Assembly (NCBI GenBank): GCA_008932965.1
Contig: WBXG01000003.1
Coordinates: forward strand, 1-32,000
DNA: 32,000 nt
Direction: 5' to 3'
Source of the DNA: Verrucomicrobiota bacterium
Lineage (GTDB): Bacteria; Verrucomicrobiota; Verrucomicrobiia; Chthoniobacterales; UBA6821
The translations under genes were made by a program, and so were the position numbers. Shown in pieces: positions 1,025-32,000 of this stretch. Below the pieces are notes generated by a model. It had not been told where the DNA came from and did not search any database. It saw only the letters and a program-made list of their open reading frames with translations. How positions within the stretch are numbered: position 1 is the first letter of the stretch; each line of letters begins with the position of its first letter.

Positions 1025-1077
1025 GAAATAAAGAAAGAGAAAATAGTAGTGAGTAGAGGAAAGTATTCAAGGCTTAG

Positions 1078-1093
1078 CCCGGATATTTCATCC
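1078..1093 (+). repeat. Solo copy (S1) of the dispersed end motif: CCCGGATATTTCATCC
   Basis: Matches the terminal motif of the 7601-7786 and 25694-25950 elements (CCCGSATATTTCATAC). Lies in the 76-nt spacer between the thrC stop and the lysC start. Confidence 0.6.
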
Positions 1094-1100
1094 TAAAAAA

Positions 1101-2201
1101 TTAGGAGCCTTGGATCACATTTAAGACTGCTTCTTCTGTCGCCTCAGCCTGGAGTGGCTCAGAAAGAGTATGAGATGCTGTTTCTGGATCTTTTAATCCA
1201 TGACCGGTAATAGTAAGAACAATTGTTGGATGAAGCGGAAGCTTACTAAAAATAGTTTTAGAGCGACAAAGATGATGATCCTCAGATTGAAAGATTTTTA
1301 GTAAAAGAGCCACAGGAACAACACTTGCCGGTTCTGCAAAGACCCCTTCTTTACTTGCAAGCCATTTCTGTGCTGCCAAAATTTCTTCATCAGTCACCAT
1401 ATCAAATTCACCCAAGGATTCCTTCACAGCCCCCACAGCCCCATTCCAACTTGCGGGCTGACCGATACGAATAGCTGTTGCAAGGGTCTCTGGATGATCC
1501 ATCGGTGCTCCATGATAGAGAGGGGCCGCTCCCGAAGCCTGAACTCCAAGCATGATAGGGAGATTATAACTACGACCTACATCATAAAATTCACGATATC
1601 CTTTCCAGTATGCAGTAATATTTCCAGCATTCCCGACTGGTAAAATATGAAGATCTGGAGCCTTTCCTAACTCTTCGATGATTTCAAAGGCAGCAGTCTT
1701 CTGGCCTTCAAGGCGGTAAGGATTTGTAGAATTGACTACTACAAAATCCCCTCTCTCACCTAATTTTTGAACAATGCGAAGAGCATCATCAAAATTTCCT
1801 TTAATAGCCACTACCGTAGCACCGTAGAGGTATGCCTGTACCATTTTACCTCCAGCAATCCGTCCTGCAGGAAGAATGACCACACACTGCATCCCTGCAC
1901 GAGCTGCATAGGCAGCTGCAGAGGCTGAAGTATTCCCAGTAGAAGCACAAAGGACTGCCTTGGCACTATGCTCTGCAGCTTTGGAAATGGCAACCGTCAT
2001 CCCACGATCTTTGAAAGAACAGGTAGGATTGAGACCTTCATACTTAAGATAGATATTCCCTTGAACCATCTCACTCAATGTTGGGGCATGGATTAAAGGT
2101 GTCGATCCCTCGCTCAACGAGATAATAGGGGTTGCCTCACTTACTGGGAGATACTCTCTGTAGCGGTTAATAACACCAAAATCTCCTCTTATTTTTTGCA
2201 T
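1101..2201 (-). CDS. thrC: Threonine synthase
   Basis: 366-aa ORF with the PLP-lysine motif CSFKDRGMT and an overall threonine synthase-like sequence. Sits 5 nt downstream of hom. Confidence 0.93.
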
Positions 2202-2206
2202 GCTAT

Positions 2207-3526
2207 TTAAAAAATTTCGACGTTTAAAAGAACTGGCTTTGCTTTAACACAGGCAAGAAGTGTTATTTTTTGAAGGGCAGCCTGCATCATACCATAACGG
2301 GCCTTGTGAATCATAAAGACAAGAGGAGTCTCTCCCTCACCTTGAGATTCAGGTTGCACCAGCGAAGAGATACTAATTCCTTCCTCTCCAAAAATCGTTG
2401 CAATCGTGGCAAGCACCCCAGGGCGATCTTCAACTGCAAGTCGCAGGTAATAGGAAGAGATGATTTCAAGAGCAGGACGACTTTTTCCATAAAGGGAATG
2501 AGGAGTAAAACCGACTAAGTGGCTTGAGACCTCGTTGGTTGGGGTAGTATGAAGTCTATGAGCTGCTGCTACCACAAGATCCCCAATGACAGAGCTTGCT
2601 GTAGGCTCACATCCAGCCCCACGTCCATAAAAAAGAGCCTCCCCGACTAGATCCCCTTTTACCGCAATAGCATTGAAGGAGCCACTCACAGAAGCCAAAA
2701 TACTTTTTTTCGGAATGAGCGTAGGACTGACTCCTACTTCGATGAAGCCATCAGCAGTATCACGAATGCTAGCTAAAAGCTTAATAGAGTAACCAAATTT
2801 TTTTGCAAAAGTGATGTCAGCTGCAGTGATTGCTTCGATCCCCTCGACTCGAACCTCCTCTGGTCGTACCCAGAAGCCATAAGCCAAGGCAGCTAGAATA
2901 ATAGCTTTGTGTCCCGCATCCCATCCACTTAGATCGAGTGTTGGATCTGCTTCTGCATAGCCACGAGCGGTCGCCTCAGAAAGGGCCTCATCATAATCCA
3001 GCCCCTCCTCTTCCATGCGAGAGAGAATATAATTGGTCGTTCCATTAAGAATTCCATGAATCGATTCAATCCGATTTCCCACAAAAGCGTCGCGTAAGTT
3101 TTGAATAATAGGAATGCCTCCAGCCACCGCAGCTTCATAAAAAATAGGAACACCCTTTTTTTTCGCAAGCGCAAAAATCTCCTCCCCTCGCTCTGCCAAG
3201 AGTGCTTTATTACCGGTAACAACAGTGCGACCCGATTCCAGCGCTCCTTTAATGAGCTCAAAAGCATCGGTGGTTCCCCCCATGAGTTCTACAATGACTT
3301 GAATCTTCGGATCACGTAAGAGATCTCTCCATGAATCGACTAGAAGGCATTTAGGAAGAATCGCATCACGTTTTTTCTTGAGGTCACGCACAGCAATAGC
3401 ACCGATCTCAAAAGAGGCCCCTGTGCGCTCTAAAAGAAGTTCCCGTTGCTTCTCTAAATATTTAAAAACCCCACCACCAACCGTACCAAATCCTGCAAGA
3501 CCGATACTGATGGGGTGAGTTGTCAT
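2207..3526 (-). CDS. hom: Homoserine dehydrogenase with C-terminal ACT-like regulatory domain
   Basis: 439-aa ORF. N-terminal Rossmann [12 protein letters not shown], and a C-terminal [31 protein letters not shown]-type segment. In hom-thrC-lysC gene order. Confidence 0.92.
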
Positions 3527-3538
3527 AGAAACACTTTT

Positions 3539-5308
3539 TTAAATTGCAGTCCCTATTATACCTTGGAGAAAAGGAGCAGCCCCTGCACACAGTGTGCAGA
3601 TATACCCTATAAGTCCTCCAGCATAGGCTTCAAAGCCTACTGCCATCCTTGAAGAATGCTCAGGATCTGCATTATATGCGTATAGTGCATAGCCTAAAGA
3701 ACCGGAAATAATGGCTGTAGCAAGCGTTGGAGATACTTCATATAACTGTGTCAACATTGTGCCGAATTGGGTACATAGTGCTCCCATTCCTGTTTGAGCG
3801 GCGTCAACAATCACACCTTCGGCAGCGCCTTCAGCTACTGGAGCTGCTTGGAAACACCCGAAAAGATTTTGAAAAGCATTCCTAAGACAATCAGGGATCA
3901 ACCAATTCCCTATCCACTGGATAGCGGAGATAATTCCATTTATAAAAAGCCCTAAAAAATGTTTTAAACCAAGCAAGAAAAAATGGATACTCCCTCCAGT
4001 TCCAGCACCTATTCCATAATCAATTGTTCTGTAAAGAACATCAGGATGATGTGGGAGAGCAGAAAAACCCTCCTTAGGATTATACACATCATGGAAATCT
4101 TGTGATATCACTTCTTTTGATTTTTCGTACATACCGGAAAGAGATGTATCTTTAGGCTCAATCAACACCACCCGAAAGCCAACATCATTGGAGGCATATT
4201 GAAGCAGTGAAAGACCTTGAGAACCATGTTCGTGGGGATCATTACTCTTCTGATCAATGAACACATAATTTTCAGAACTAATTTCCATTGGGCTAGTTGA
4301 TTTCCATGAACCTCCTCGAATAATAGTTGTTTCCATGGTAACAAGAGAATTAGTAGACGTTCTAACAAGAGATCTAGAATCAGTCCATTGAGCCACATTC
4401 CCCCCCATATCACAGGTTCCAAAAGGTCCTGGGGAGTGTTTAAAAATACCAACCGGAGTTATCTTTGGTTGGAATTTTTCAGTTTGAGTATAATTATCAT
4501 TTAGGTGGTAATTGACATTTTGAAATGCCCCTTCAGTATCAATTGGCTTGTTATATTCCTCTTCAGTGCTATTAAATGGTTGGTCTCCTTTGGATGTGGA
4601 ATAAAGCCAATATTGTCCCTCATTGGCTTTATCATAATAGGCAGCCTTGTACCATTCATCTTCGCTAGGCAAGCGCCAGAATCCTCCTGGCCATTTTGAT
4701 TGATCGTAGGTTACTTGATCTTGTGAAAAATTAGCATGACAGAGATCATCATTAATTTTGTAGGGACCATCTTCAGTAGTGTTTTTATCTTCTTCACCCG
4801 TCTGGGGCTGTCCATTGGAGAGCCAGTTACAAAAGCGCACTGCTGCAAAAAAATCGACATACGTGATAGGTAACTGACCTCGATCGAGTGAATCAAGATC
4901 GTTTTTTGCTTCTTCATCACCATTTTTCTTGCTGATTACTTTATAAGAAATGGTTCCTCCTGGACTCGTGATTTTTTTAATACAATTCGCAAAAGAATCT
5001 GTCTGCATTTTTGTATTAAAGAGATGAAAAGGATCAGCAGGAAATCCTTTTGTTGCTACCGCATTGAGGAAAGCACACCACTCTCTGGCAGTAACATCAA
5101 ATTTTCCAATTTTAAAATCATGATTGACGGTACCGCGACCATTAGTATCAAATTTATTTCCAGCATCATCAACGGTCATCGTCTCGATCGTTAAAGTAGG
5201 ATTGGAATCCTTCGTGCTGTTTTCCTCGGCTTTCAAACAAAAGCTAGATAACCCAAAAAGGGTGCAAAAAAGAACTGTATATAGGGGATTTCTGGGGGGA
5301 TTCATCAT
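3539..5308 (-). CDS. FGE/SUMF1 (formylglycine-generating enzyme family) domain protein with signal peptide and Gly/Ala-rich hydrophobic C-terminal region
   Basis: 589-aa ORF. N-terminal hydrophobic signal-like segment (LYTVLFCTLFGLSSFCLKA). FGE-sulfatase-type motifs CDMGGNVAQWTD and IRGGSWKS. The last ~158 aa (nt 3542-4015) are Gly/Ala-rich hydrophobic stretches (GIGAGTGGSIHFFLLGL..., AVGFEAYAGGLIGYICTLCAGAAPFLQGIIGTAI). Confidence 0.75.
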   Translation of the reverse strand: MMNPPRNPLYTVLFCTLFGLSSFCLKAEENSTKDSNPTLTIETMTVDDAGNKFDTNGRGTVNHDFKIGKFDVTAREWCAFLNAVATKGFPADPFHLFNTKMQTDSFANCIKKITSPGGTISYKVISKKNGDEEAKNDLDSLDRGQLPITYVDFFAAVRFCNWLSNGQPQTGEEDKNTTEDGPYKINDDLCHANFSQDQVTYDQSKWPGGFWRLPSEDEWYKAAYYDKANEGQYWLYSTSKGDQPFNSTEEEYNKPIDTEGAFQNVNYHLNDNYTQTEKFQPKITPVGIFKHSPGPFGTCDMGGNVAQWTDSRSLVRTSTNSLVTMETTIIRGGSWKSTSPMEISSENYVFIDQKSNDPHEHGSQGLSLLQYASNDVGFRVVLIEPKDTSLSGMYEKSKEVISQDFHDVYNPKEGFSALPHHPDVLYRTIDYGIGAGTGGSIHFFLLGLKHFLGLFINGIISAIQWIGNWLIPDCLRNAFQNLFGCFQAAPVAEGAAEGVIVDAAQTGMGALCTQFGTMLTQLYEVSPTLATAIISGSLGYALYAYNADPEHSSRMAVGFEAYAGGLIGYICTLCAGAAPFLQGIIGTAI

Positions 5309-5350
5309 AGTATTTTTGGAAAAAGGGAAGTGAATATAATTCGATCCTCT

Positions 5351-5378
5351 AAAACTTCAAGGGATAATTTTGAAGTTT
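5351..5378 (-). terminator. Candidate weak stem-loop downstream of nuoF
   Basis: AAACTTCAA (5352-5360) pairs with TTGAAGTTT (5370-5378), a 9-bp AT-rich stem with a 9-nt loop, 45 nt past the nuoF stop. On the minus strand the hairpin is followed by TTTTAG. Confidence 0.3.
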
Positions 5379-5422
5379 AGCGAAGGAATCAAGCTCCTCC
5401 CCATTGATAGGGCATCACAAAT

Positions 5423-6769
5423 TTATTGATGAGCTATTTGCGCTCCAAATTCCTCGGGGAACTTATCAATGAAGCTTTGGGTCGGCCATGAAGCAGCCTC
5501 ACCAAAAGCGCAAACGGTTCGTCCTGCGATATGATCAGCAATATTGTGCAGCGAGATAGAATCTGATTCTTGAGTGCCTTCGGCAATCATACGGGTAGAA
5601 AGCTTCGACATCCAGAGCACTCCCTCACGACATGGAGTACATTGCCCACAGCTTTCGTGAGCGTAGAATTGATTGAGATTGTTAAGAGCCCACAGCATGT
5701 TACGAGAATCATCCATCACAATGACCCCTGCACTTCCAATCATGGAGCCAGCGGCAGCAAGATTTGCCGCGTCCATTACCATATCAAGGAGAGGCACCTC
5801 TTTATCAATCACAGTTCCATCATCAGCCTTGGATTTGATTTTAAAAATTTCATTTGCACGTAAGACTTTGGAGGAGCTCCCACCAGGAATAATTGCCTTC
5901 AGACTTCTTCCAGGGCGAAGGCCACCACAGATATCAAAAATTAATTCACCCAAGGTTACCGATCCAACAGCTAACTCATAAGGACCTGGTTTCATCACAT
6001 CACCACTGACACAGAGAACGCGGGTTCCCCCATCACCAGCAGTTCCCATGGCGGCATACTCAGCAGAACCAAGACGAAGTATATGCTTTACATGGCAGAT
6101 TGTCTCCACGTTGTTGACAATGGTTGGAGCCATGTAGAGACCAAGCACTGCAGGAAAATAAGGTGGCTTAATTCGAGGATAAGGACGCTTTCCCTCAAGT
6201 GATTCTAGAAGGCTTGTCTCCTCTCCGCAAATGTAGGCCCCTGCCCCTTCATGAAAGTAGATATCAAGATCAAATCCCATTCCAAAAATATTCTTTCCTA
6301 AAAAACCCCGGTCACGGGCCTCTTGAATCGCTTTTTCCATGATCTCTTTGGCATGGGTATATTCACAACGTACATAGATGTAGGCCAGATGAATATTGAG
6401 TGCATAGCACGTGATGATCATTCCCTCAAGTAACTGGTGAGGATCACGGTGGAGAATATAACGATCTTTGAATGTCCCAGGTTCCGACTCATCTCCATTC
6501 ACACAGAGATAGTGGGGCTTTCCATCATCACGACGAATAAATCCCCACTTTACTCCTGTTGGAAAAGCAGCCCCTCCGCGTCCTCGCAAATTAGAAGCCT
6601 TGACTTCATTGACGATTGCCTCAGGGGTCATAGTAAAAGCTTTTTTAGCTTCCTCATATCCCCCATGCGCTAGGTAGTTCTCAATATCAGGAGTATAGTC
6701 TGACTTTCCAGCATTTTCAAAAATGATACGACGCTCTTTAGGGTGAGGATGTTCAATAAGAGAAGACAT
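5423..6769 (-). CDS. nuoF: NADH:quinone oxidoreductase subunit F-like flavoprotein (FMN/NADH-binding, 4Fe-4S)
   Basis: 448-aa ORF with GRGGAAFPTGVKW (FMN/NADH site) and ESCGQCTPCREG (N3 4Fe-4S cluster motif). Confidence 0.92.
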   Translation of the reverse strand: MSSLIEHPHPKERRIIFENAGKSDYTPDIENYLAHGGYEEAKKAFTMTPEAIVNEVKASNLRGRGGAAFPTGVKWGFIRRDDGKPHYLCVNGDESEPGTFKDRYILHRDPHQLLEGMIITCYALNIHLAYIYVRCEYTHAKEIMEKAIQEARDRGFLGKNIFGMGFDLDIYFHEGAGAYICGEETSLLESLEGKRPYPRIKPPYFPAVLGLYMAPTIVNNVETICHVKHILRLGSAEYAAMGTAGDGGTRVLCVSGDVMKPGPYELAVGSVTLGELIFDICGGLRPGRSLKAIIPGGSSSKVLRANEIFKIKSKADDGTVIDKEVPLLDMVMDAANLAAAGSMIGSAGVIVMDDSRNMLWALNNLNQFYAHESCGQCTPCREGVLWMSKLSTRMIAEGTQESDSISLHNIADHIAGRTVCAFGEAASWPTQSFIDKFPEEFGAQIAHQ

Positions 6770-6774
6770 AAAGT

Positions 6775-7362
6775 TTAGGAATTTTTTTTGATAATATCTT
6801 CTACATCTTGAAGAGAGACTCTTTCCACAAGGTCTTTGTTAACGAGACAGACAGGGGCAGATCCACAGCTTGCAAGACATTCCACAAATTCCACACTAAA
6901 CTTTGCATCAGGGCTTGTTGGAATTCCGTGATGTCCTTCACAAGTGGGATCGATTCCCGTACTCTTACAAAATTTTTCATGTATTTCATAGCTACCAGCC
7001 AATGCACAGGAAAGGGTACGACAGACACGAATGATTGTTTTTCCTGGGGCCTTTTGGCGGAACCATGGATAGAAAGTGATGAGCTCTAAAATCGAAATTG
7101 AATTAAGATCCAATTTTGCAGCAATCCACTCAACTCCACTCTCATCAATAAAACCGAAATGATTTTGCCACAAGTGGAGCAAGGGAAGTGCAGCACTTCG
7201 TTTAGAAACGGGATAGTGGGTGATGGCTTCTTCCACCTTATCGAGCAACCCTGAGGTAATCCTCTCTGCTTGTGACAGTGTAGAACCAAGAACATCATCG
7301 TGAGACAATAGCTCACCATGGGAAGAGGTTTGTTCGATAGTGTTATGAGCTCGTTGGTCCAT
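6775..7362 (-). CDS. nuoE: NADH:quinone oxidoreductase subunit E-like 2Fe-2S thioredoxin-like protein
   Basis: 195-aa ORF with the Cys pattern CRTLSCALAG ... CLASCGSAPVC typical of NuoE/HoxF-N. Stop lies 5 nt before the nuoF start. Confidence 0.9.
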   Translation of the reverse strand: MDQRAHNTIEQTSSHGELLSHDDVLGSTLSQAERITSGLLDKVEEAITHYPVSKRSAALPLLHLWQNHFGFIDESGVEWIAAKLDLNSISILELITFYPWFRQKAPGKTIIRVCRTLSCALAGSYEIHEKFCKSTGIDPTCEGHHGIPTSPDAKFSVEFVECLASCGSAPVCLVNKDLVERVSLQDVEDIIKKNS

Positions 7363-7494
7363 TAGAAAATTTTCAGAATTTTAATCAGGTAAGTTTTCCA
7401 AGTGTACAAAATGAATTTGGAATGACGAGAAGATCTTTCTTGTTTTTTATCAATATTTAAAAACAAGCTCTCTATGACTCGAATTTCAAAATCA

Positions 7495-7569
7495 TGGCTC
7501 CAGCGGTAGGATTCGAACCTACGACCAATCGGTTAACAGCCGACCGCTCTACCACTGAGCTACGCTGGA
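7495..7569 (-). tRNA. tRNA-Asn (anticodon GTT), CCA encoded
   Basis: The minus strand reads TCCAGCG TA GCTC AGTGGTA GAGC G GTCGG CTGTTAA CCGAT TGGTC GTAGG TTCGAAT CCTAC CGCTGGA G CCA. This gives a 7-bp acceptor stem, D arm, anticodon loop CTGTTAA (GTT), T arm with TTCGAAT, 75 nt in total. Confidence 0.93.
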
Positions 7570-7600
7570 TCTAGTGCTTAAACTTTTTTCACAACACAAA

Positions 7601-7786
7601 GGGTTAACCCGCCTATTTCATACCGATTCTGCTGCGGCTTGCGAACACCTGATGGATACTGCGTCAGCTTCGAATTGCTCCTCGGGCGGTATGAAACATA
7701 CAGCCGTCGTCGCAATCCATCACTTCCTTGTCTGCATCAGGATTCGCGGCGCCTCGCGACGAATCAGTATGAAATATGCGGGTTAA
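7601..7786 (+). repeat. Full-length copy A of an inverted-repeat-bounded, GC-rich, non-coding dispersed element (MITE-like or structured RNA)
   Basis: Left end is TTAACCCGCCTATTTCATACCGA. The reverse complement of the right end is TTAACCCGCATATTTCATACTGA (21/23 identical). The element matches the reverse complement of 25697-25950 with 6 mismatches over 178 aligned nt plus one indel. It is visibly more GC-rich than its flanks. Confidence 0.85.
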
Positions 7787-7848: not shown

Positions 7849-7870
7849 TTAACCCGGATATTTCACACTA
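7849..7870 (+). repeat. Solo copy (S2) of the end motif: TTAACCCGGATATTTCACACTA
   Basis: Matches the TIR consensus. Lies 62 nt right of copy A, in the spacer downstream of the carA stop. Confidence 0.65.
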
Positions 7871-7899
7871 AATCTATTACGACTTATGAAAAGCTCCTT

Positions 7900-9220: not shown

Positions 9221-9985
9221 TTGATCATGAAACATGATTTTAATGAAAGATGTGATTCATCATCTCAAACGTACCAATATTATCATTGTTGCAGTTTTCT
9301 AGCTCGACTTTTGTTTCGAGTTTTTTGTCGAGTGCATCTCGTGATCCTTGAAACCCCTCCCAAAGAGGGTCCTTCTATCATCGCTTCCAATCATATCAGT
9401 CATTTTGAGCCAGCACTATTAGGTGGTTTTTTTCCTCGAGCACTCGATTGGGTTGCCATGGAAGAATTATTTCAACATCCACTAGGCAGATGGTTATTGA
9501 AACATCTTCATGTTATTAGCATGGATCGCTTCGGAAAAAATTTCGCACACAATCGTCACTCGCTTCGCTCTATTTTGCAGAGGCTGCGTCTTGGACGGGC
9601 TGTTGGTATTTTTCCAGAAGGTGGAATTCGTTCCGGAGAGGAATCGATTTTAGAAAAGGCCCCTATGAAACCTGGACTCACAATGCTAAGTTTCTTTTCT
9701 CAAGCCCCTGTTATTCCCTGTGTTGTTTTGGGAACGGATCGACTTTATCTTTTTAAAAATTGGCTCCGTCGTCCTCCTATTTGGATTATCATTGGAAAAG
9801 CCATGAGACCTCCCCCCAAAGAGGAGAGAAACAACGCACAAGCACGCCTCAATTTTGAAGAAAAATTAAATTCTGTTTTTCCAGCGTTACAAAAAGAGCT
9901 GTACGAACGTTTTCAATTAACTCCTGAGGACCTTCCAAAAACAGCAGCAGAAAGAAGAGGAACCAGTATAAAATATCCGGGTTAA
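9221..9985 (+). CDS. plsC: 1-acyl-sn-glycerol-3-phosphate acyltransferase-like (LPLAT/PlsC family)
   Basis: 254-aa ORF with SNHISHFEP (an HX4D-type motif, here with Glu in place of Asp) and GIFPEGGIRSG. The track start 9221 is TTG; the ATG at 9227 is an alternative start. The last codons and the stop lie inside repeat S3. Confidence 0.75.
   Translation: MIMKHDFNERCDSSSQTYQYYHCCSFLARLLFRVFCRVHLVILETPPKEGPSIIASNHISHFEPALLGGFFPRALDWVAMEELFQHPLGRWLLKHLHVISMDRFGKNFAHNRHSLRSILQRLRLGRAVGIFPEGGIRSGEESILEKAPMKPGLTMLSFFSQAPVIPCVVLGTDRLYLFKNWLRRPPIWIIIGKAMRPPPKEERNNAQARLNFEEKLNSVFPALQKELYERFQLTPEDLPKTAAERRGTSIKYPG
9965..9985 (-). repeat. Solo copy (S3) of the end motif overlapping the 3' end of the plsC-like gene
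   Basis: The plus strand reads AGTATAAAATATCCGGGTTAA. Its reverse complement is TTAACCCGGATATTTTATACT. The TTAA supplies the TAA stop codon. Confidence 0.65.
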
Positions 9986-11027: not shown

Positions 11028-12884
11028 ATGACTGACGAACTTACTCAATGCATCGCTGCTGGAAAAATTAGCCCTCCTGACGCCGAAAAACTCCAATCTC
11101 TTTCTCCAGGATCTTACTGCAAACATCGCAGCTGGGGATTTGGACGTGTCAACGCATGGCATCTTTTAACAGATCAAGTCATCATCGATTTTGTCGGGAA
11201 AAAAAATCACCCGATGCAATTACATTATGCAGCAGAAACATTGATTCCTATTCCTGATAACCATATCTTGGCACGACTAGAAAATGACCCTACTGCGATT
11301 CAAGAAGAGGCCAAGAAAGACCCTGTAGGACTCGTTCGAATGATCTTAGCAGATCATGGCGGAGCTGCCACCATGGATGAAATTTCAGAAATCCTAGTGC
11401 CTGTTATTTTTGATGCTGCTGGATTCAAAAAATGGTTTGATACCACGAAGAAAAAACTAAAAGCAGATGGTCACTTTGAAATACCAACAAAGAAAAATAT
11501 TCCGATCAAATTACAGGAGGTCAAGGTTGAGCAGCATCATCGGACCCTAGAACAATTCCACACAGCTCGCCATCCTAAGGAACAAGTTACAGCTATTGAT
11601 GCTCTCATTAAAACACTGGATGCTTCCACACTGAGTCTGGAAGAACTTCAAATAGTCATTCGTCATCTAGATGATGCTGCACGCCGAGCAGAACGCTTGC
11701 ATATTTCCAAGGGACTTGAACTTTTATTAGCACGCAATGAAATTGCCAGCTTTCACAAAGAATTAGAGCCTGCCTCCATTCAACCCTCAATCACTGAGTT
11801 TTTAGCCAATACTGTAAAAAAACTGCACGATATCTTTTCAGAACTTCCTGCTTCAAAATACCGACGTATTCTTAAAAATTTCCCAACAGTGTTTCCTCAG
11901 AAATGGCAGGATCAGGCAACACAACTCTTGCGCCATGCAGAACCGCGACTTGTAAGTGAGATATTACTTCTTTTTAAAGAAAATAATAGTGAGGCTGCCT
12001 TTGCCTCCATCCTGGGACGGATGATCCAAGATCGCTCCGCTAGCTCGGATCTTCTCTCTTGGATCTGCGAGGAGAGGAAAAAAACCTTCCCTGAATTTAT
12101 CAATAGTGAGCTTCTCTCAGCTATTATCTCCTCCCTAGAACGGGATATGCATCTGGAGGGAAAAAAAGGGAATCGCTTACAAGAGCTTCTTTTTACTGAT
12201 CGAGAACTCATTGCAGATCTTCTATCATCAGCACATGATGACATAGCACGAAACATCATTAGAAAAATTATGATGAGTCCTGTCTTTAATGATCTTGACC
12301 GTCGCTCCCTTTTAGCACGTATTTTAAAAACTCACCCTGAGCTTCAATCGCTGGTAACAGGGCATCAAGAAAAAGAACATTCCGCTGCTCGTGATGAAAA
12401 TCTTATTGTTTCTTGGAAAAGCTTAGAACGACGCAAGAACGAGTATGAAAATCTCGTTAACAAATTAATTCCACAAAACACAAAAGATATTTCTATTGCT
12501 CGTTCCTACGGAGATTTGCGTGAAAATTTTGAATTTAAATCTGCCAAAGAACAACAAACAGTCCTACTTCGTCAAAAAGGGGAGCTAGAACTACTACTAA
12601 ATCGAGCTCGTGGAACGAATTTCGAAAATCCTGATACTTCTGTTGTTTCCATTGGAACCGTTATTTCCCTACAAGATAAAGTTACCGGAGAAAAAGAGAG
12701 CTACTCTATCTTAGGAGCTTGGGATGGAGCACCAGAAAAACGCTGGGTCTCCTATCAAGCAGTCATTGGACAAGCTTTGCTGGGTCATGCTCAAGGCGAT
12801 GTAGTCACCCTCCCTGCAGAAAAAGGAGACCGGTCGATGATCATTGAAAAAATTGAACCTTTTACTGAGAGCATCGAGAGTTAG
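11028..12884 (+). CDS. Long GreA-family transcript-cleavage factor homologue: ~455-aa N-terminal extension plus a complete GreA-like module
   Basis: The C-terminal ~160 aa contain the coiled-coil tip SYGDLRENFEFKSAKEQQ (acidic D/E pair conserved) and a GreA C-domain-like stretch VSIGTVISLQD...VSYQAVIGQALLGHAQGDVV. I did not recognise the N-terminal 450 aa. Confidence 0.7.
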   Translation: MTDELTQCIAAGKISPPDAEKLQSLSPGSYCKHRSWGFGRVNAWHLLTDQVIIDFVGKKNHPMQLHYAAETLIPIPDNHILARLENDPTAIQEEAKKDPVGLVRMILADHGGAATMDEISEILVPVIFDAAGFKKWFDTTKKKLKADGHFEIPTKKNIPIKLQEVKVEQHHRTLEQFHTARHPKEQVTAIDALIKTLDASTLSLEELQIVIRHLDDAARRAERLHISKGLELLLARNEIASFHKELEPASIQPSITEFLANTVKKLHDIFSELPASKYRRILKNFPTVFPQKWQDQATQLLRHAEPRLVSEILLLFKENNSEAAFASILGRMIQDRSASSDLLSWICEERKKTFPEFINSELLSAIISSLERDMHLEGKKGNRLQELLFTDRELIADLLSSAHDDIARNIIRKIMMSPVFNDLDRRSLLARILKTHPELQSLVTGHQEKEHSAARDENLIVSWKSLERRKNEYENLVNKLIPQNTKDISIARSYGDLRENFEFKSAKEQQTVLLRQKGELELLLNRARGTNFENPDTSVVSIGTVISLQDKVTGEKESYSILGAWDGAPEKRWVSYQAVIGQALLGHAQGDVVTLPAEKGDRSMIIEKIEPFTESIES

Positions 12885-14841: not shown

Positions 14842-14846
14842 TCTAG

Positions 14847-14864
14847 TCCGCATATTTCATACTA
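14847..14864 (+). repeat. Solo copy (S4) of the end motif: TCCGCATATTTCATACTA
   Basis: Matches the TIR core. Begins 6 nt after the ftsB stop. Confidence 0.65.
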
Positions 14865-14944
14865 ATGTGTCGTGCACTCAGCTTCATCACTCATTCCCGT
14901 TTAGGATGCTTGTAAAATAAGGTGAGAGCATTTATTTTTCTATC

Positions 14945-15526
14945 ATGTTGAGGAATGCTTTTAATTCTATAGAACCATTTGCGTTCAAAGAATGGGCTCT
15001 CGTTTGTGAAGCGCTTGGTTCTGGAGATCAAAGTCTTTTACTACGCAAGGGAGGAATCGCTGAGGGAAAAGAGGGATTTGGTTTTAAGCACTCCGAATTT
15101 TTTCTCTTTCCGACATGGTTTCATGGACAAATTGAAAAGATACGTCCCCTGCGTGCCTCTGCAATTTTAGAGGAAGCTCCCGAAGTTTTCAATTTGGAGT
15201 ATATGGCTTCAATAGAGTGGAATGATTTTATCACCGATCGCAAGAAGCTAACTCGTCTCGCCTCTTTTCATATTCTTGAGGAGTCGGTCATTGAAGAGCG
15301 CTTTGGTTATACCGAAAAACATCAGAAAAATATTCCTGGGATTCATGTGGCTTTTGTTCGTGTCTATCGCCTTGATATTCCATTTCAAATCACCATGGAG
15401 AAACGTTTTGGGGGATGTCGCTCTTGGATTCAACTTCCTAAAATGATCGTTGGCACCTCCGTTTCTGTTTTAAGTGACGAGGAACATAGCGAGCGCCGCA
15501 ATTTTTTGGCACAGGCACTAGCCTAA
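14945..15526 (+). CDS. Conserved hypothetical protein (resembles DUF1802 family from memory)
   Basis: 193-aa ORF. The N-terminus FKEWALVCEALGSGDQSLLLRKGGIAE...FFLFPTWFH resembles what I recall of DUF1802 proteins. No catalytic motif recognised. Flanked on both sides by repeat motifs S4 and S5. Confidence 0.6.
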   Translation: MLRNAFNSIEPFAFKEWALVCEALGSGDQSLLLRKGGIAEGKEGFGFKHSEFFLFPTWFHGQIEKIRPLRASAILEEAPEVFNLEYMASIEWNDFITDRKKLTRLASFHILEESVIEERFGYTEKHQKNIPGIHVAFVRVYRLDIPFQITMEKRFGGCRSWIQLPKMIVGTSVSVLSDEEHSERRNFLAQALA

Positions 15527-15597
15527 ATATTTCATACCGAACACCTGCCTTGCCCGGATATTTCATACTGATCGTTATAAGGAGTATGAAACATTCG
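15525..15597 (+). repeat. Composite degenerate copy (S5): truncated left end plus a mini hairpin version of the element
   Basis: AAATATTTCATACCGA-ACACCTG equals the copy A left end with the 18 nt TTCTGCTGCGGCTTGCGA deleted. It is followed by CCCGGATATTTCATACTGA-TCGTTATAAGG-AGTATGAAACAT, in which TTTCATACT and AGTATGAAA form a 9-bp inverted repeat. Confidence 0.7.
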
Positions 15598-15661
15598 AGT
15601 TCGAAAAATTTTTTATCACGAAGCTGGATTTTCTGCAGACATCTTTTATGTTCTTAGGTAC

Positions 15662-25693: not shown

Positions 25694-25950
25694 GGGTTAA
25701 CCCGCATATTTCATACTGGTTCGTCGTGAGGCGCCGCGAATCCAGATGCAGACACCACCGGCGGTCGGGAGACTGCGGTGGAGACTGCCCTGAAAGGGCG
25801 AGACGAGCGGGAGCAAGCGAGTCAACGAAGGTGATGGATTGCGACGACGGCTGTATGTCTCATACTGCCCGAGGAGCAATTCGAAGCTGACGCAGTATCC
25901 ATCAGGTTTTCGCAAGCCGCAGCAGAATCGGTATGAAATAGGCGGGTTAA
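25694..25950 (-). repeat. Full-length copy B of the dispersed element, inverted relative to copy A, with 76 nt of GC-rich sequence where copy A has 5 nt
   Basis: Positions 25697-25754 match the reverse complement of copy A with 3 mismatches in 58 nt. Positions 25831-25950 match with 3 mismatches in 120 nt. Positions 25755-25830 (76 nt) replace 5 nt of copy A. The same TIRs are at both ends. Confidence 0.85.
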
Positions 25951-27351: not shown

Positions 27352-28245
27352 TTAGTTGGAAGAGGAGATGTAGGGAACAACCTTTAATTGATTCGCTCCA
27401 TCACGGTAAAAACCGTAAAATCCTGGAAGCTTACCAAACCAATCCATCATAGATGTCTGAAGGAAATCATGATGCTGTAGCTCCCTGTTTTTTTTCAATA
27501 CTCCATTTTTATTTCGAATTTGATCAAAAGGTAATGTGAGTTTTTGATATTCGGCATCATTCAAACGAGCCTTGGCAAGCCGCTCTGGATCATAAATGGA
27601 AATCCACCATGCCCCGAATGAGTCAGATTCGGTAGGCGGCTTAATTTTAAAAATAAATTTTCCTGCACGTTTCTCTTCCCCCTTGAGGTTAAGACTATAA
27701 AAGGTAGCAAGTGCTGAACGTGAAGAAATATAACCTGCCAAAAATTCTCGTGCGAGTTCTTGAAACTTTTCTAGCCGCTCTCCCCGTGCATAGCTACCAA
27801 GCTCAACGCAGGCAGGATCCTTAGGATTTCCATAAACATTCATCTCTCCATGATTGTTCACTTGAAAGGAGAGATAAGGGACATTTTTTAAATACCCTTC
27901 ATCGATCCTGGTAGCCGGTATCTGAAAAAAAGATTTTACCATATCATTACACCTTAGGTCTTGAACCATCATTCGCCAAGGAGGAGCCTTATCTGGGTCC
28001 ACAAGATCAGCAAAGTAGACCATGCTTTTATCAGCATCATTGATACGTTGCACGGAGGCTTTATTAATAATTCGTTCTCCTAAGGACTGCTGGAGGATAA
28101 TTTCTTTGGCATTACTTTTAATGATTAATCCTTCATAGCGTGTCCCATCTTTCATAATCACTAAATCAGGTAAAAGGCGGTCTAATCCATAAGAAATTCC
28201 AAAACAGGTATTCAAAAAGAGTAGTAATAAAATTATTTGCTTCAT
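27352..28245 (-). CDS. Secreted hypothetical protein, no recognisable domain
   Basis: 297-aa ORF with signal peptide MKQIILLLLFLNTCFGISYG. Its stop lies 7 nt before the preferred start of GH1 paralogue 1, which implies co-transcription. Confidence 0.6.
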   Translation of the reverse strand: MKQIILLLLFLNTCFGISYGLDRLLPDLVIMKDGTRYEGLIIKSNAKEIILQQSLGERIINKASVQRINDADKSMVYFADLVDPDKAPPWRMMVQDLRCNDMVKSFFQIPATRIDEGYLKNVPYLSFQVNNHGEMNVYGNPKDPACVELGSYARGERLEKFQELAREFLAGYISSRSALATFYSLNLKGEEKRAGKFIFKIKPPTESDSFGAWWISIYDPERLAKARLNDAEYQKLTLPFDQIRNKNGVLKKNRELQHHDFLQTSMMDWFGKLPGFYGFYRDGANQLKVVPYISSSN

Positions 28246-29633: not shown

Positions 29634-29641
29634 TTATCAGA

Positions 29642-29657
29642 GCATATTTCATACTGA
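29642..29657 (+). repeat. Solo copy (S6) of the end motif: GCATATTTCATACTGA
   Basis: Identical over 16 nt to the left end of copy B (25703-25718) and to the reverse complement of the right end of copy A. Begins 9 nt after the stop of GH1 paralogue 2. Confidence 0.7.
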
Positions 29658-29919
29658 TTCTTAGTGAATCTCTGAGCAGCATAATGCAGTCAGAATAGTG
29701 CATGCTAATCATGGCAAGGAAGAAAGTGCCCCGCAATGCCGTTAAGGATGCTAAACCGTTCCATTAAGAAAAGGTGGATATCGCTAATCGAAATGCTGAA
29801 GTCCAATAAAGGCATGTCATTATTTCGTCTAGTAGAGATTTCCGTAATGTTTTACATAGGTCCGGGAGCAATATATACCGGTATCTCGAACACCGCAGGG
29901 CATAGAGATGCTAATGTAT

Positions 29920-32000
29920 CTACGATCTAACTTCAACACCTAATAGCTCCTGGAGCCGAACAATCAATCGATCACAGGCAGAAGTGACTTCTTGAGTAGT
30001 TAAGGTGCGATCCTCGTGTTGGAATGTTAATTGTAGTGTTACTGATTTTTTTTCTACTGCAATTTTCTCTCCAGTAGGATCCATAAAGATATCAAGAGGG
30101 ATGATCTTTTTAAGAAGTGGTTCTTGCGCTGCTTGGAGTTCTTTTTCAAGAAGTTCGTAGGGTACTAGCGTGTCCATTACCATTGCAAGATCACGCGTGA
30201 TGGTTGGAAGTTTTGAAAGCCCCTCCTCTTTTTTCCATGAATCACGTTCTGCGGCATGTTGAAGAGCAGTCACTTCGAGTTCAGCAACACTGAGAGAGTA
30301 TTCCTGCCCTGTCACCGTGATTTTACGGGCCATTGCAGGAGCCATGAGTCCAATATATCCGCAGTATTGCCCATCACAAAAAACATCAAGCATCCTAGCC
30401 ATTATTGGGGGTAATGCTCGTACGGAAGGACGATAACTCATTTTTCCTGGAACTAAATGATCAAGGACTCCTTTTAAATCAAAGAGATCTAGCGAGCGCG
30501 GGACTTCTTCTCGCCAGGAAAGAGGGAGGGCGTTGCCGGTCATGATAAGGCCAATTAAGATCCGTTCTTCCTCTTTAGTGATATTGCCAAAAACTTTTCC
30601 CATTTCAAACATGCGAACCGAATGTGCTCCCTGATAAAGATTATGCTTTACCACCTCTTGTAATCCGGAGATCAGGCCTGCTCTTAAAACCGATTGTTGT
30701 TCCCCTAATGGATTACAAAGCCTCAGAGCCTCAGAGGAAGAGCTCTCTAGTGGAACTAAGGCACTGGTACGGGCTTCATAAAAACCACTAGCAATCAAAC
30801 GCCGACGCAAAAGCATCATAAAATCATGGATCTTATCGGTTGGACTTGAAGGAACAGAAAAACTTAACGTACGAGCCTTGATCGATTCCAGCCCGTAGAG
30901 ACGGGCGACTTCTTCGATGAGGTCGATTTCACGCGTGAGGTCGAGACGCCACGGAGGGATTTGCCACCCCGTGTCACAGGAAAAGAGTCCAAATTTTTTT
31001 AATAGCAAAGAAATTTCTTCATCTTGAAGAGAAATTCCAAGCAGCTGACGACAACGATCGAAGCGAAAGAGGACCTCAGTTGGCAATAGCATTTCTCCAG
31101 CGATGCTAACTTCATGAGATGCTACAGCGCCTGAAATTTCAATGATCATAGCAGTAGCACGTGCTGAAGCTTCTCTAGCATTATCTGCCTGAGAACCCCG
31201 TTCAAAACGATAGGAAGCATCGGTTGCTAATCCATGAGCACGAGCAGAAGCGCGAATCATGCTAGAATTAAAAACAGCACTTTCCAATAAAATGGATTTT
31301 GTCTCTTTGGTAACGCTACTTTCAAGACCACCAATAATCCCTGCTAAGGCTTGAGCCCCCTTTTCATCGGCAATCACCAGATCAGAAGATCGTAGTAAAT
31401 ATGTTTTTCCATCGAGCAAGCTTATCTTTTCTCCCTCCGTTGCAAAACGAACCGTGAGTGCTCCTTGAATTTTATCAGCATCAAAAGCATGCAGCGGATG
31501 CCCCATTTCCATCATTACGTAATTTGTAACATCAACGATATTGTTGATACTTCTTAATCCAATCGCCTCAAGGCGTTGTTGTAACCATGAGGGGCTAGTC
31601 TTGACTGCAGTATTGGAAATAGAGCGTAAGCTATAGAAGGAACAAGCATGAGAATCTTCAATAGCAGCACGAGAACTCTCTTTTTTTACTAATGGGAGTA
31701 TCACCTCATTGCGAAAAAACTCCCCAGCTCCGAAAGCTGCAGCTTCACGAGCCACACCAACATGTCCTAACCAATCTGGACGATTTGGAGTGATTTCTAA
31801 CTCCAAAATTGTATCACTTGGAAACAGCGCGCCAAACTCAGTCCCAATAACGGTCTTAGGATCGAGAATATGAAGCCCTTCCCCCCCTTCTCCTAGCCCA
31901 AGTTCTTTTGCACTACACATCATTCCTTCACTCTCTACTCCGCGAAGCTTACCCACTTTAATTTTGATTCCACCTGGAAGAACCGCTCCCGGTAGGGCAA
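29920..32000 (-). CDS. pheT: Phenylalanine--tRNA ligase beta subunit, 5' end beyond the window
   Basis: The 678-aa track ORF has B3/4, B5 and C-terminal FDX-ACB-like regions (ITPNRPDWLGHVGVAREAAAFG, HPLHAFDADK). The frame stays open upstream of M at 31956 to the window edge (…LPGAVLPGGIKIKVGKLRGVESEGMMCS, tRNA-binding domain). Confidence 0.92.
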   Translation of the reverse strand, partial: ALPGAVLPGGIKIKVGKLRGVESEGMMCSAKELGLGEGGEGLHILDPKTVIGTEFGALFPSDTILELEITPNRPDWLGHVGVAREAAAFGAGEFFRNEVILPLVKKESSRAAIEDSHACSFYSLRSISNTAVKTSPSWLQQRLEAIGLRSINNIVDVTNYVMMEMGHPLHAFDADKIQGALTVRFATEGEKISLLDGKTYLLRSSDLVIADEKGAQALAGIIGGLESSVTKETKSILLESAVFNSSMIRASARAHGLATDASYRFERGSQADNAREASARATAMIIEISGAVASHEVSIAGEMLLPTEVLFRFDRCRQLLGISLQDEEISLLLKKFGLFSCDTGWQIPPWRLDLTREIDLIEEVARLYGLESIKARTLSFSVPSSPTDKIHDFMMLLRRRLIASGFYEARTSALVPLESSSSEALRLCNPLGEQQSVLRAGLISGLQEVVKHNLYQGAHSVRMFEMGKVFGNITKEEERILIGLIMTGNALPLSWREEVPRSLDLFDLKGVLDHLVPGKMSYRPSVRALPPIMARMLDVFCDGQYCGYIGLMAPAMARKITVTGQEYSLSVAELEVTALQHAAERDSWKKEEGLSKLPTITRDLAMVMDTLVPYELLEKELQAAQEPLLKKIIPLDIFMDPTGEKIAVEKKSVTLQLTFQHEDRTLTTQEVTSACDRLIVRLQELLGVEVRS

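What the first reader, a model, noticed from the sequence alone, without database searches (positions are those of the whole stretch)
7601..7786. 186-nt GC-rich element with 23-nt terminal inverted repeats and an internal third copy of the repeat core, next to tRNA-Asn
Directly visible in the sequence:
- The left end TTAACCCGCCTATTTCATACCGA and the reverse complement of the right end TTAACCCGCATATTTCATACTGA match at 21/23 positions.
- A third copy of the core sits inside. CGGTATGAAA (7687-7696) is perfectly complementary to TTTCATACCG (7616-7625). The left ~100 nt therefore form an inverted-repeat-bounded sub-unit, and the whole looks like a nested or modular element.
- Further pairing potential: GATGGAT (7651-7657) with ATCCATC (7725-7731), and GATTCG (7741-7746) with CGAATC (7760-7765).
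- The element is markedly more GC-rich than the surrounding AT-rich spacers and lies 31 nt from the 5' end of tRNA-Asn (minus strand).

The architecture is that of a bacterial MITE such as the Neisseria Correia elements (short, TIR-bounded, intergenic, no ORF). I saw no transposase in the window and cannot assign the TIR to a known IS family. A structured small RNA is an alternative reading.
Basis: partly seen in the sequence, partly recalled or inferred. Interest (0 to 1): 0.72.

Follow-up and report, generated by a model that had tools for sequence, protein, structure and literature searches.

The report
In-frame-tolerant IS1380-type MITE family
The element is one copy of an abundant miniature transposon of freshwater Verrucomicrobia that inserts at TTAA-like sites, carries the end sequences of an IS1380-type (piggyBac-related) transposon, and is sized and phased so that it can sit inside protein-coding genes without breaking them.

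Summary
Window 7604-7786 is a 175-nt element with 22-26-nt terminal inverted repeats, flanked by TTAA.

- The window holds a second full copy (25697-25950) and at least six remnants.
- Nested insertions and flank statistics show a 4-bp target duplication of YTAR.
- A relative about 90% identical in DNA has an empty site next to tRNA-Asn.

- **Parent family.** The same ends bound 537-593-nt elements that carry remnants of an IS1380-family transposase. Full-length IS1380 elements from metagenomes have ends YTAR|CCCGSATTTCTCAC.
- **Coding compatibility.** The Chthoniobacterales subfamilies add 180 nt and are stop-free in one frame in both orientations. At least 12-16 copies lie in frame inside genes, including pheT, gcvP, comEC, malQ and an LMW phosphatase. 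Many others sit exactly on stop codons, which the duplication regenerates.

The behaviour resembles the Rickettsia palindromic elements, here with a candidate transposase family. The cognate autonomous element was not found. A structured-sRNA reading is not supported.

The parts
7604..7607 (.). Left target-site duplication (TTAA)
   Evidence: The same tetranucleotide is found at 7783-7786. Across the family the flanks are identical in 87/134 pairs. Non-palindromic direct pairs (CTAA/CTAA, TTAG/TTAG) outnumber inverted pairs 8 to 0. Nested insertions show one YTAR before insertion and two after.
7608..7782 (+). MITE core, subfamily A: arm class I, apex hairpin, arm class II. It is 175 nt, 1 nt shorter than the 176-nt consensus.
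   Evidence: It is 97.2% identical to copies at unrelated loci of another MAG.
7608..7629 (+). Left terminal inverted repeat (CCCGCCTATTTCATACCGATTC)
   Evidence: (I1).
7689..7701 (+).
   Evidence: A motif GTATG-N(1-5)-CATAC (one mismatch allowed per arm) lies near the centre of 80 of the 98 copies of 165-195 nt. It forms the terminal loop in the MFE folds.
7761..7782 (+). Right terminal inverted repeat (GAATCAGTATGAAATATGCGGG)
   Evidence: I1.
7783..7786 (.). Right target-site duplication (TTAA)
7849..7896 (+). Truncated copy: TTAA plus 44 nt of a subfamily-C class-I arm. It abuts the carA stop codon at 7900.
   Evidence: (D1). The relative L041 has a full subfamily-B copy at this position.
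9943..9985 (-). Remnant of one element end. It supplies the last codons and the TAA stop of the acyltransferase ORF 9221-9985.
25697..25950 (-). Second full copy, 'A-long' subfamily, with a ~70-nt GC-rich internal insert. It is in the opposite orientation, is flanked by TTAA/TTAA, and lies 33 nt downstream of the GH1 gene stop codon.
   Evidence: Seven further copies carry the same insert.
1074..1104 (+). Remnant: TTAG, 23 nt of the element end, TTAG. The stop codon of ORF 1101-2201 (minus strand) lies in the right TTAG.
14843..14875 (+). Remnant: CTAG plus TCCGCATATTTCATAC..., 2 nt after the DivIC stop codon.
15518..15600 (+). Two degenerate ends forming a mini-palindrome. The stop codon of ORF 14945-15526 lies inside the first end.
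29639..29663 (+). Remnant of an element end, just after the GH1 stop codon (29633) and upstream of the 6S RNA gene.

Best explanation
The element is a non-autonomous DNA transposon (MITE) of a large, mosaic family found in freshwater Chthoniobacterales (Verrucomicrobiota). Related subfamilies occur in Phycisphaerae.

**Shown:**
- It is multi-copy.
- It has conserved 16-26-nt terminal inverted repeats beginning CCCG.
- It inserts at YTAR (mostly TTAA) and duplicates those 4 bp.
- It inserts into other copies of itself.
- It is present or absent at orthologous sites.

**Inferred:** It is moved in trans by an IS1380-family DDE transposase, the prokaryotic relatives of piggyBac. Three results point that way. 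The identical ends bound deletion derivatives that still carry IS1380 transposase remnants. Full-length IS1380 elements have closely similar ends. Those elements also have YTAR flanks.

**Shown as a pattern, inferred as an adaptation:** The Chthoniobacterales subfamilies are built to do little harm.
- The net insertion is 180 nt (60 codons), or 183 nt in subfamily C.
- The frame TTA-ACC-CGC... is stop-free in both orientations in subfamilies A, B and 6/5, and in one orientation in C. An insertion into a TTA codon therefore adds about 60 residues (LTRIFHTD...YEICGL) instead of truncating the protein.
- Because YTAR contains TAA or TAG, insertions exactly on a stop codon regenerate that stop.

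The copy at 7604-7786 is an intergenic, slightly decayed member with a 1-nt deletion. It was inserted after the split from its ~90%-identical relative. Its position next to tRNA-Asn is incidental.
For: **Copy number**
- The window has 6 TIR matches, against 0 in shuffles.
The modal length is 184 nt including both flanks.

**Target-site duplication**
- Flank pairs are TTAA/TTAA 69, CTAG/CTAG 10, CTAA/CTAA 4, TTAG/TTAG 4, and inverted non-identical 0.
- In L030, a type-C copy sits in a type-B copy as ...GAGT CTAA[element]CTAA CGCAG.... Intact B copies have a single CTAA there.
- Similar nested cases occur in L025, L005 and L074.

**Empty sites**
- L041 is 89.7% identical to window 2245-7576. It lacks the 7604-7786 copy.
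- L004 lacks L013:5006-5181.
- The window's PheT lacks the 60-aa insert present in L014.

**IS1380 link**
- L032:2264-2817 has the exact ends and YTAR flanks (TTAA/TTAG).
- It encodes a remnant that matches PF13701 positions 5-50 (E = 3.8e-8) and NF033539 'IS1380 family transposase' (E = 3.8e-4).
- The same kind of derivative occurs in L093-L102.
- Full-length elements of about 1.6-1.8 kb (more than a dozen with clear ends) have ends YTAR|CCCG(C/G)ATTTCTCAC, 13/16 identical to the MITE TIR. Three of their transposases scored 390-394 bits against NF033539, whose cut-off is 180.

**Coding compatibility**
- The net length is 180 nt in 55/77 copies and a multiple of 3 in 59/77.
- Frame 0 is open in 61% and 47% of copies for the two orientations, against 4% of shuffles and 0-3% for the other frames.
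- The consensus sequences of subfamilies A, B and 6/5 are open in both orientations.
- 16/135 copies lie in frame within long ORFs.
- Pfam confirms GcvP, PheT, ComEC, GH77 and LMW-PTP as host proteins.

**Stop-codon sites**
- 50/354 element ends close an ORF of at least 100 codons, against 2.3% of all YTAR sites.

**RNA families**
- No Rfam family matches.
Against: - No full-length autonomous element with the exact MITE ends was found.
- No transposase occurs in the window or in about 600 kb of Chthoniobacterales loci.
- The link to IS1380 rests on the 16-20-nt ends and the flanks only. Subterminal sequences of the MITE and of the derivatives show no significant similarity.
- YTAR with a 4-bp duplication is also the signature of IS5 (PMC5009759).
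- Flanks of the IS1380 derivatives are YTAR but not identical in 5/5 distinct loci.
- The 'adaptation' reading of the open frame could partly reflect shared descent, because palindromy makes the two orientations non-independent.
- Subfamily D is not ORF-compatible.
- Translation of the in-gene copies is inferred from intact ORFs, not observed.
- MAG sequences may contain assembly errors in repeats.
Confidence: 0.8

Rival explanations
1. It is an ordinary MITE with no evolved coding compatibility. The 180-nt length and the open frame are accidents of the master copies. The in-gene copies are simply the ones purifying selection did not remove.
For: - The two orientations are not independent in a near-palindrome.
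- The subfamilies share ancestry.
- Subfamily D in another host has stops in all frames.
- Most copies are intergenic.
Against: - Three diverged subfamilies, whose arms cluster apart at a 30% distance cut-off, keep frame 0 open in both orientations at the consensus level and have a length that is a multiple of 3.
- The shuffle expectation is 4% per frame.
- 46 of 65 copies not in genes are still open in at least one orientation.
Confidence: 0.3
2. It is a MITE mobilised by an IS5-family transposase rather than an IS1380-family one.
For: The YTAR target with a 4-bp duplication is the classic IS5 signature (PMC5009759). IS711 also targets YTAR (PMC2266754).
Against: - Elements with the exact MITE ends carry IS1380 remnants, not IS5 remnants.
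- Full-length IS1380 elements have CCCG... ends with YTAR flanks.
- From my own knowledge, IS5-group ends start GG or GA. This was not tested here.
Confidence: 0.08
3. It is a structured small RNA or cis-regulatory RNA gene, for example a terminator or stabiliser, that is merely repeated.
For: - The fold is very stable: -89 kcal/mol, z = -7.7.
- Inner stems differ in sequence between subfamilies but stay complementary. 12 of 28 consensus pairs show double changes.
- One strand folds 11-17 kcal/mol better in 76/77 copies.
Against: - No Rfam match was found.
- Copies lie in both orientations relative to genes.
- Copies occur inside coding regions in frame and inside other copies.
- Copies have target-site duplications and empty sites.
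- The covariation comes from a few subfamily-level events in a foldback transposon.
Confidence: 0.03
4. It is a REP/REPIN-type palindrome moved by a RAYT (IS200/IS605-like tyrosine transposase).
For: It is a long hairpin-forming doublet, highly abundant and mostly extragenic. No transposase lies nearby.
Against: - It has a 4-bp target duplication.
- It has long true TIRs shared with DDE-transposase elements.
- The ends do not begin with GTAG or CGTC, the tags of the two REP super-families (abstract of PMC3733652; ends seen).
Confidence: 0.03

Closest known systems
Rickettsia palindromic elements (RPEs; Ogata et al. 2000, as summarised in PMC10969869)
   Same: - Both are short palindromic repeats of about 150-180 nt.
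- Both are frequently inserted in frame within unrelated housekeeping genes.
- Both encode a conserved peptide.
- Both leave the host ORF intact.
   Different: - The hosts differ: free-living freshwater Verrucomicrobia, not Rickettsiales.
- This family has clear TIRs, a defined 4-bp YTAR duplication and a candidate transposase family.
- From my own knowledge, no mobilising enzyme has been identified for RPEs. This was not checked here.
- Sequence similarity to RPEs was not tested.
IS1380-family insertion sequences (e.g. IS1247, ISEcp1), relatives of eukaryotic piggyBac
   Same: - Ends begin CC(C).
- The target duplication is short. IS1247 is listed with a 5-bp direct repeat in PMC3281130.
- Elements with the MITE's exact ends carry IS1380 transposase remnants.
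- TTAA target plus CCC...GGG termini mirror piggyBac (from my own knowledge). IS1380 serves as its prokaryotic outgroup in PMC10813416.
   Different: - The element itself encodes no transposase.
- The cognate full-length IS was not found.
- I found no description of IS1380-derived MITEs among the titles and abstracts returned by the library search. That absence is not proof.
Neisseria Correia elements
   Same: Both are short, TIR-bounded, abundant, foldback-forming elements without a transposase ORF.
   Different: From my own knowledge, Correia elements are about 100-155 bp, duplicate TA, carry IHF and promoter motifs, and are restricted to Neisseria. Here the duplication is 4 bp (YTAR) and the ends are of IS1380 type.
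IS5 and IS5-derived MITEs
   Same: The target motif is 5'-YTAR-3' with a 4-bp duplication (PMC5009759).
   Different: The terminal sequences and the transposase remnants linked to these ends are IS1380, not IS5.

Membership tests
MITE (miniature inverted-repeat transposable element) | Short (well under 1 kb) and without a transposase gene | tested here: met
   The core is 175-176 nt, or 246 nt in the long variant. The only ORFs are read-through frames.
MITE (miniature inverted-repeat transposable element) | Terminal inverted repeats | tested here: met
   Arms are 26 nt and 92% complementary in the window copy. The 16-nt core is conserved in 395 ends.
MITE (miniature inverted-repeat transposable element) | Target-site duplication of fixed length | tested here: met
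   The duplication is 4 bp, YTAR. 87/134 flank pairs are identical, and direct non-palindromic pairs outnumber inverted ones 8 to 0. Nested insertions confirm it.
MITE (miniature inverted-repeat transposable element) | Multiple dispersed copies with filled and empty sites | tested here: met
MITE (miniature inverted-repeat transposable element) | A related autonomous element with the same ends | tested here: inconclusive
   Deletion derivatives with identical ends and IS1380 remnants were found. Full-length IS1380 elements have ends 13/16 identical. No exact full-length cognate was found.
IS1380-family-derived element | Ends beginning CC and a 4-5-bp duplication | tested here: met
   The element reads CCCG...CGGG with a 4-bp duplication. 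Related full-length IS1380 elements read YTAR|CCCG.... IS1247 is listed with a 5-bp direct repeat in PMC3281130.
IS1380-family-derived element | Ends recognised by an IS1380 (DDE_Tnp_1_4) transposase | not testable with these tools
   Only association was shown: remnants matching PF13701 and NF033539 lie inside elements with these ends. Binding and transposition need an experiment.
Rickettsia palindromic elements (RPE) | Palindromic repeat inserted in frame in protein-coding genes and encoding a conserved peptide | tested here: met
   16/135 copies are in frame in long ORFs. Hosts are verified by Pfam and by an insert-free orthologue. The peptide LTRIFHTD...YEICGL is conserved.
Rickettsia palindromic elements (RPE) | Sequence homology to an RPE family; Rickettsiales host | not tested
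   No RPE sequences were compared. The hosts here are Verrucomicrobiota and Planctomycetota MAGs. This is an analogy, not membership.
REP/REPIN | 20-40-nt palindromes with a GTAG or CGTC tag, no target duplication, associated RAYT | tested here: not met
   The ends begin CCCG and a 4-bp duplication is present. No RAYT was searched for.
IS5-family-derived MITE | YTAR 4-bp duplication together with IS5-type ends and transposase | tested here: not met
   YTAR is met, but the transposase remnants inside elements with these ends are IS1380.
Any Rfam RNA family | Covariance-model match at or near the gathering score | tested here: not met
   Only tRNA and 6S RNA reach threshold in the window. Nothing credible overlaps 7601-7786 even at E up to 10.

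The most novel reading that the evidence does not exclude
This is a previously undescribed lineage of IS1380/piggyBac-type miniature transposons with a TTAA/YTAR target and CCC...GGG ends. It has evolved to be translation-compatible: 60 codons, stop-free in both orientations, and stop-codon-regenerating when it lands on a terminator codon. It therefore colonises essential genes of free-living bacteria as well as intergenic DNA. That would make it a second, independent 'RPE-like' system, and the first with an identifiable transposase family. It would also give a prokaryotic parallel to the target and end chemistry of piggyBac.
Probability: 0.45. Interest if true: 0.75.

Novelty: new variant of a known kind. 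Interest (0 to 1): 0.62.

Why it matters
- **Beyond Rickettsia.** In-frame 'selfish DNA inside proteins' has been known mainly from Rickettsia and a few endosymbionts, and its mechanism of spread is unresolved. Here the same behaviour appears in free-living freshwater Verrucomicrobia.
- **A tractable mechanism.** The family has defined ends, a defined 4-bp target and a candidate IS1380-type transposase. That makes the spread of coding palindromes experimentally approachable.
- **Link to piggyBac.** Prokaryotic IS1380 relatives are shown here with YTAR (often TTAA) flanks and CCC...GGG termini, as in piggyBac. This is relevant to the origin of that superfamily.
- **Practical consequences.**
  - The repeats break MAG assemblies.
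  - They are annotated as dozens of spurious 45-107-aa hypothetical proteins.
  - They add 60-residue insertions to housekeeping enzymes.
  - They can serve as strain-level markers.

Tried and rejected
- **Rfam.** Searches at the gathering score and at E up to 10 found nothing for the element.
- **Transposase between distant TIR pairs.** The 2-5-kb TIR-bounded segments hold ordinary genes. In L003 the two ORFs look, from their sequences alone, like a glycosyltransferase and a ketoacyl synthase, and in the window the segment holds carA.
- **Multi-copy ORFs.** None occur in about 600 kb of loci. All ORF pairs found are orthologues between MAGs.
- **Strain variants through exact-protein look-ups.** Look-ups with carA and nuoE returned the same strain, or contigs that break at the repeat.
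- **Orientation bias relative to genes.** It is weak: 8 against 19.
- **Counting wobble-type differences between the two arms in a MAFFT alignment.** The counts are balanced. MFE folds show only 6 versus 3-5 G:U pairs, so the strand asymmetry in stability remains unexplained.
- **RNAalifold consensus over all subfamilies.** The result is poor, -6 kcal/mol, because the alignment mixes mosaic modules.
- **Similarity beyond the TIR.** MITE arms show no significant similarity to the IS1380 derivative or to full-length IS ends.
- **Peptide-profile search of protein databases.** It returned mainly spurious short ORFs called on the elements, not host proteins.
- **Search with the transposase remnant.** It found a single 76-aa fragment.
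- **Viral contigs.** No match.
- **Literature.** Titles and abstracts returned by the searches gave no description of this family or of IS1380-derived MITEs.
Full report
**1. The observation**

- A 26-nt inverted repeat, 92% complementary, spans 7604-7629 and 7761-7786.
- The internal decamer 7687-7696 is perfectly complementary to 7616-7625.
- GC is 0.49-0.53, against 0.30-0.37 in the neighbouring spacers.
- tRNA-Asn lies at 7495-7569 on the minus strand.
- One coordinate is off by ten: ATCCATC is at 7715-7721.

The pattern is not chance.
- The terminal 20-mer has six matches at up to 3 mismatches in the window. It had none in 100 dinucleotide-preserving shuffles.
- The element folds far better than shuffles: z = -5.0 on the plus strand and -7.7 on the minus strand.
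- No Rfam family matches it, even at E up to 10.

**2. It is a repeat family**

The window holds more than one copy.
- A second full copy lies at 25697-25950. It is in the opposite orientation and carries a ~70-nt internal insert.
- Truncated copies lie at 7849-7896 and 9943-9985.
- Further remnants lie at 1074-1104, 14843-14875, 15518-15600 and 29639-29663.

- Nearly all hits come from two Chthoniobacterales/'Spartobacteria' MAGs and one 'Phycisphaerales' MAG.
- About four chance matches are expected for a 19-base pattern in a collection of that size (my estimate). This accounts for the isolated hits in unrelated taxa.
- The loci hold 395 ends and 135 paired elements. The modal length is 184 nt including flanks.
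- The window itself comes from a close relative of the Tobar2m-G38 MAG: 89.7% DNA identity over 5.3 kb.

**3. Anatomy**

Each element has a fixed polarity. It consists of an arm of class II, an apex hairpin GTATG-N3-4-CATAC, and an arm of class I. Each class has three main variants, which combine into subfamilies A, B, C and a frequent 6/5 combination. Rarer chimeras also occur.
- A further subfamily, D, of 172-173 nt, populates the Phycisphaerales MAG.
- An 'A-long' subfamily carries a 70-93-nt insert. The window copy at 25697 belongs to it.
- The inner stems differ completely in sequence between subfamilies but remain complementary: CATTTTGAT/ATCAAAATG, GGATTGC/GCAATTC, GAAGTCT/AGACTTC and GATTGTGA/TCACAATT.
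- The foldback is therefore maintained. This rests on a few subfamily-level events.

**4. Evidence for transposition**

*Flanks.* The four bases outside CCCG...CGGG are TTAA/TTAA in 69 pairs, CTAG/CTAG in 10, CTAA/CTAA in 4 and TTAG/TTAG in 4. The inverted arrangement (CTAA/TTAG) never occurs. These bases are therefore a direct 4-bp duplication of YTAR, not part of the inverted repeat.

*Nested insertions.* In L030 a type-C copy interrupts a type-B copy as ...GAGT CTAA[C]CTAA CGCAG.... Removing it with one CTAA restores a sequence 90-97% identical to dozens of intact B copies. L025 (TTAG), L074 (CTAG) and L005 behave likewise.

*Empty sites.*
- The orthologous tRNA-Asn locus of the Tobar MAG (L041) lacks the 7604-7786 copy. 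It aligns on both sides: 86.8% over 341 nt across the junction. The upstream spacer is too diverged to read the exact empty YTAR.
- L004 lacks L013:5006-5181.

*Age.* The window copy is 97.2% identical to copies elsewhere in the Tobar MAG, although the two genomes differ by about 10%. Nearest-neighbour identity within a MAG has a median of 94-95% and a maximum of 98%. The family has therefore been active since these lineages split.

**5. Which transposase**

No transposase is in the window. Every ORF of at least 100 aa not nested within a longer ORF was scanned against Pfam. All but one (27352-28245, no family) match housekeeping families, and none matches a transposase family. No multi-copy ORF occurs in about 600 kb of loci.

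*Deletion derivatives.*
- A 554-nt element in a Phycisphaeraceae MAG (L032:2264-2817) has the exact ends CCCGCATATTTCATAC...GTATGAAATATTCGGG and YTAR flanks (TTAA/TTAG).
- It encodes a frameshifted remnant, GRQLVIADLSGGRISSDGGALLLREAERSLKLA/EGLVGRLAACIADQR.
- The remnant matches PF13701 positions 5-50 (E = 3.8e-8) and NF033539 'IS1380 family transposase' positions 2-43 (E = 3.8e-4).
- The same kind of derivative, 537-593 nt, recurs in microbial-mat metagenomes. It fuses the N-terminal remnant to what looks, by inspection only, like the transposase C-terminus.

*Full-length relatives.* A metagenome scan with the remnant recovered full-length elements of about 1.6-1.8 kb.
- Their transposases are 452-489 aa. 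Three were tested and scored 390-394 bits against NF033539, whose cut-off is 180.
- Their ends read YTAR|CCCG(C/G)ATTTCTCAC..., 13/16 identical to the MITE end, or YTAR|CCCGTCTTATTCATG.

*Assessment.* The ends and the target belong to an IS1380 clade. IS1380 is the prokaryotic group used as outgroup for piggyBac (PMC10813416). From my own knowledge, piggyBac also has TTAA targets and CCC...GGG termini. There are three caveats.
- No full-length element with the exact MITE ends was found.
- Similarity between MITE and IS is confined to the ends.
- YTAR with 4 bp is also the IS5 signature (PMC5009759).

**6. Compatibility with coding sequence**

*Length and frame.*
- The net insertion is 180 nt in 55 of 77 oriented copies and a multiple of three in 59.
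- The frame starting at the first base of the duplication (TTA ACC CGC...) is stop-free in 61% of copies on one strand and 47% on the other. Shuffles give 4% and the other four frames 0-3%.
- The consensus sequences of subfamilies A, B and 6/5 are open in both orientations. Subfamily C is open in one orientation and D in none.

*Copies inside genes.*
- 16 of 135 paired copies lie in frame inside ORFs with at least 40 open codons on both sides, often hundreds.
- Pfam confirms real hosts:
  - glycine dehydrogenase GcvP;
  - PheT;
  - ComEC;
  - a GH77 4-alpha-glucanotransferase, with the insert inside the catalytic-domain match;
  - an LMW phosphotyrosine phosphatase.
- The window's own PheT (29920-31956) aligns with the L014 orthologue on both sides of a 60-residue insert, LTRIFHTDSAAAC...NQYEICGL, which it lacks.

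*Copies on stop codons.*
- YTAR contains TAA or TAG. In 50 of 354 ends the flanking duplication is the stop codon of an ORF of at least 100 codons, against 2.3% of all YTAR sites in the same DNA.
- An insertion on a stop codon regenerates the stop.
- Six of the remnants and the second full copy in the window lie within about 30 nt downstream of a gene's stop codon or overlap it.

*Comparison.* This is the behaviour described for Rickettsia palindromic elements. The 2024 review states that about half of those are in-frame in genes, and it speculates that similar cases may exist elsewhere (PMC10969869). Whether the open frame is an adaptation or an inherited accident filtered by selection is not settled. 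I put about 0.3 on the accident reading.

**7. The copy in question**

The element at 7604-7786 is an intergenic subfamily-A copy with a 1-nt deletion: its core is 175 nt. Its frame therefore ends on the right-hand TAA (ORF 7574-7786). Nothing ties it functionally to tRNA-Asn, because the site is empty in the nearest relative. Its most likely effect, if any, is a strong hairpin in whatever transcript crosses it. This is inferred and was not tested.

**8. Rivals**
- **Structured sRNA.** Rejected on orientation, intragenic and nested copies, duplications and empty sites.
- **REP/REPIN.** Rejected on the duplication and the DDE-type ends.
- **IS5-derived MITE.** Less likely than IS1380, because the remnants inside elements with these ends are IS1380.

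**9. Unexplained**
- The strand beginning with arm class II folds 11-17 kcal/mol better in 76 of 77 copies. Only a modest excess of G:U pairs accounts for this. That strand is more often antisense to neighbouring genes.
- Flanks of the IS1380 derivatives are YTAR but unequal.

**10. Verdict**

The finding is real and the MITE interpretation is right. The element is a new variant of a known kind: an IS1380-type, YTAR-duplicating MITE family with RPE-like tolerance inside genes. Its interest is moderate to high. It rests mainly on the in-frame biology and the IS1380/piggyBac-like target and end features, not on the single copy next to tRNA-Asn.

Noticed in passing
window 29724-29904 (-): A 6S/SsrS RNA gene (Rfam RF00013, 55.4 bits) lies about 60 nt downstream of an element remnant (29639-29663) and of the GH1 gene stop codon.
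   Followed up: no
window 1074-1104, 14843-14875, 15518-15600, 29639-29663, 7849-7896, 9943-9985: All six truncated remnants of the family in the window lie within a few bases downstream of a gene's stop codon or overlap it. Two of them supply the stop codon or the last codons of the ORF.
   Followed up: partly
all oriented copies (loci L001-L089 and window 7608-7782): One strand, the one starting with arm class II, folds 11-17 kcal/mol more stably than its complement in 76/77 copies. It is nevertheless more often antisense to flanking genes (19 against 8).
   Followed up: partly
L169:3060-3218: A soil or sediment metagenome contig carries a 159-nt element bounded by CCCGCATTTCTCATAC...GTATGAGAAATGCGGG, next to a full-length IS1380 element. 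This suggests that other IS1380 clades also spawn MITEs.
   Followed up: no
protein database hits P0001-P0120: The elements are annotated as many separate 45-107-aa 'hypothetical proteins' in Chthoniobacterales and Verrucomicrobia MAGs (locus-tag prefixes K9M81, QE493, DVB29, FJ390). These are spurious gene calls on the open frame of the repeat.
   Followed up: partly
window 11028-12884 (+): A GreA/GreB-domain ORF has a ~460-aa N-terminal extension with no Pfam match.
   Followed up: no
window 3539-5308 (-) versus L041:2457-4322: The FGE-sulfatase-domain protein is only about 82% identical to its orthologue, while neighbouring proteins are 86-96% identical. The locus is locally fast-evolving or rearranged.
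   Followed up: no
L041, L091, L092 and many Tobar2m-G38 contigs: Assembled contigs often end in or next to these elements. The repeats seem to fragment short-read assemblies of these genomes.
   Followed up: no
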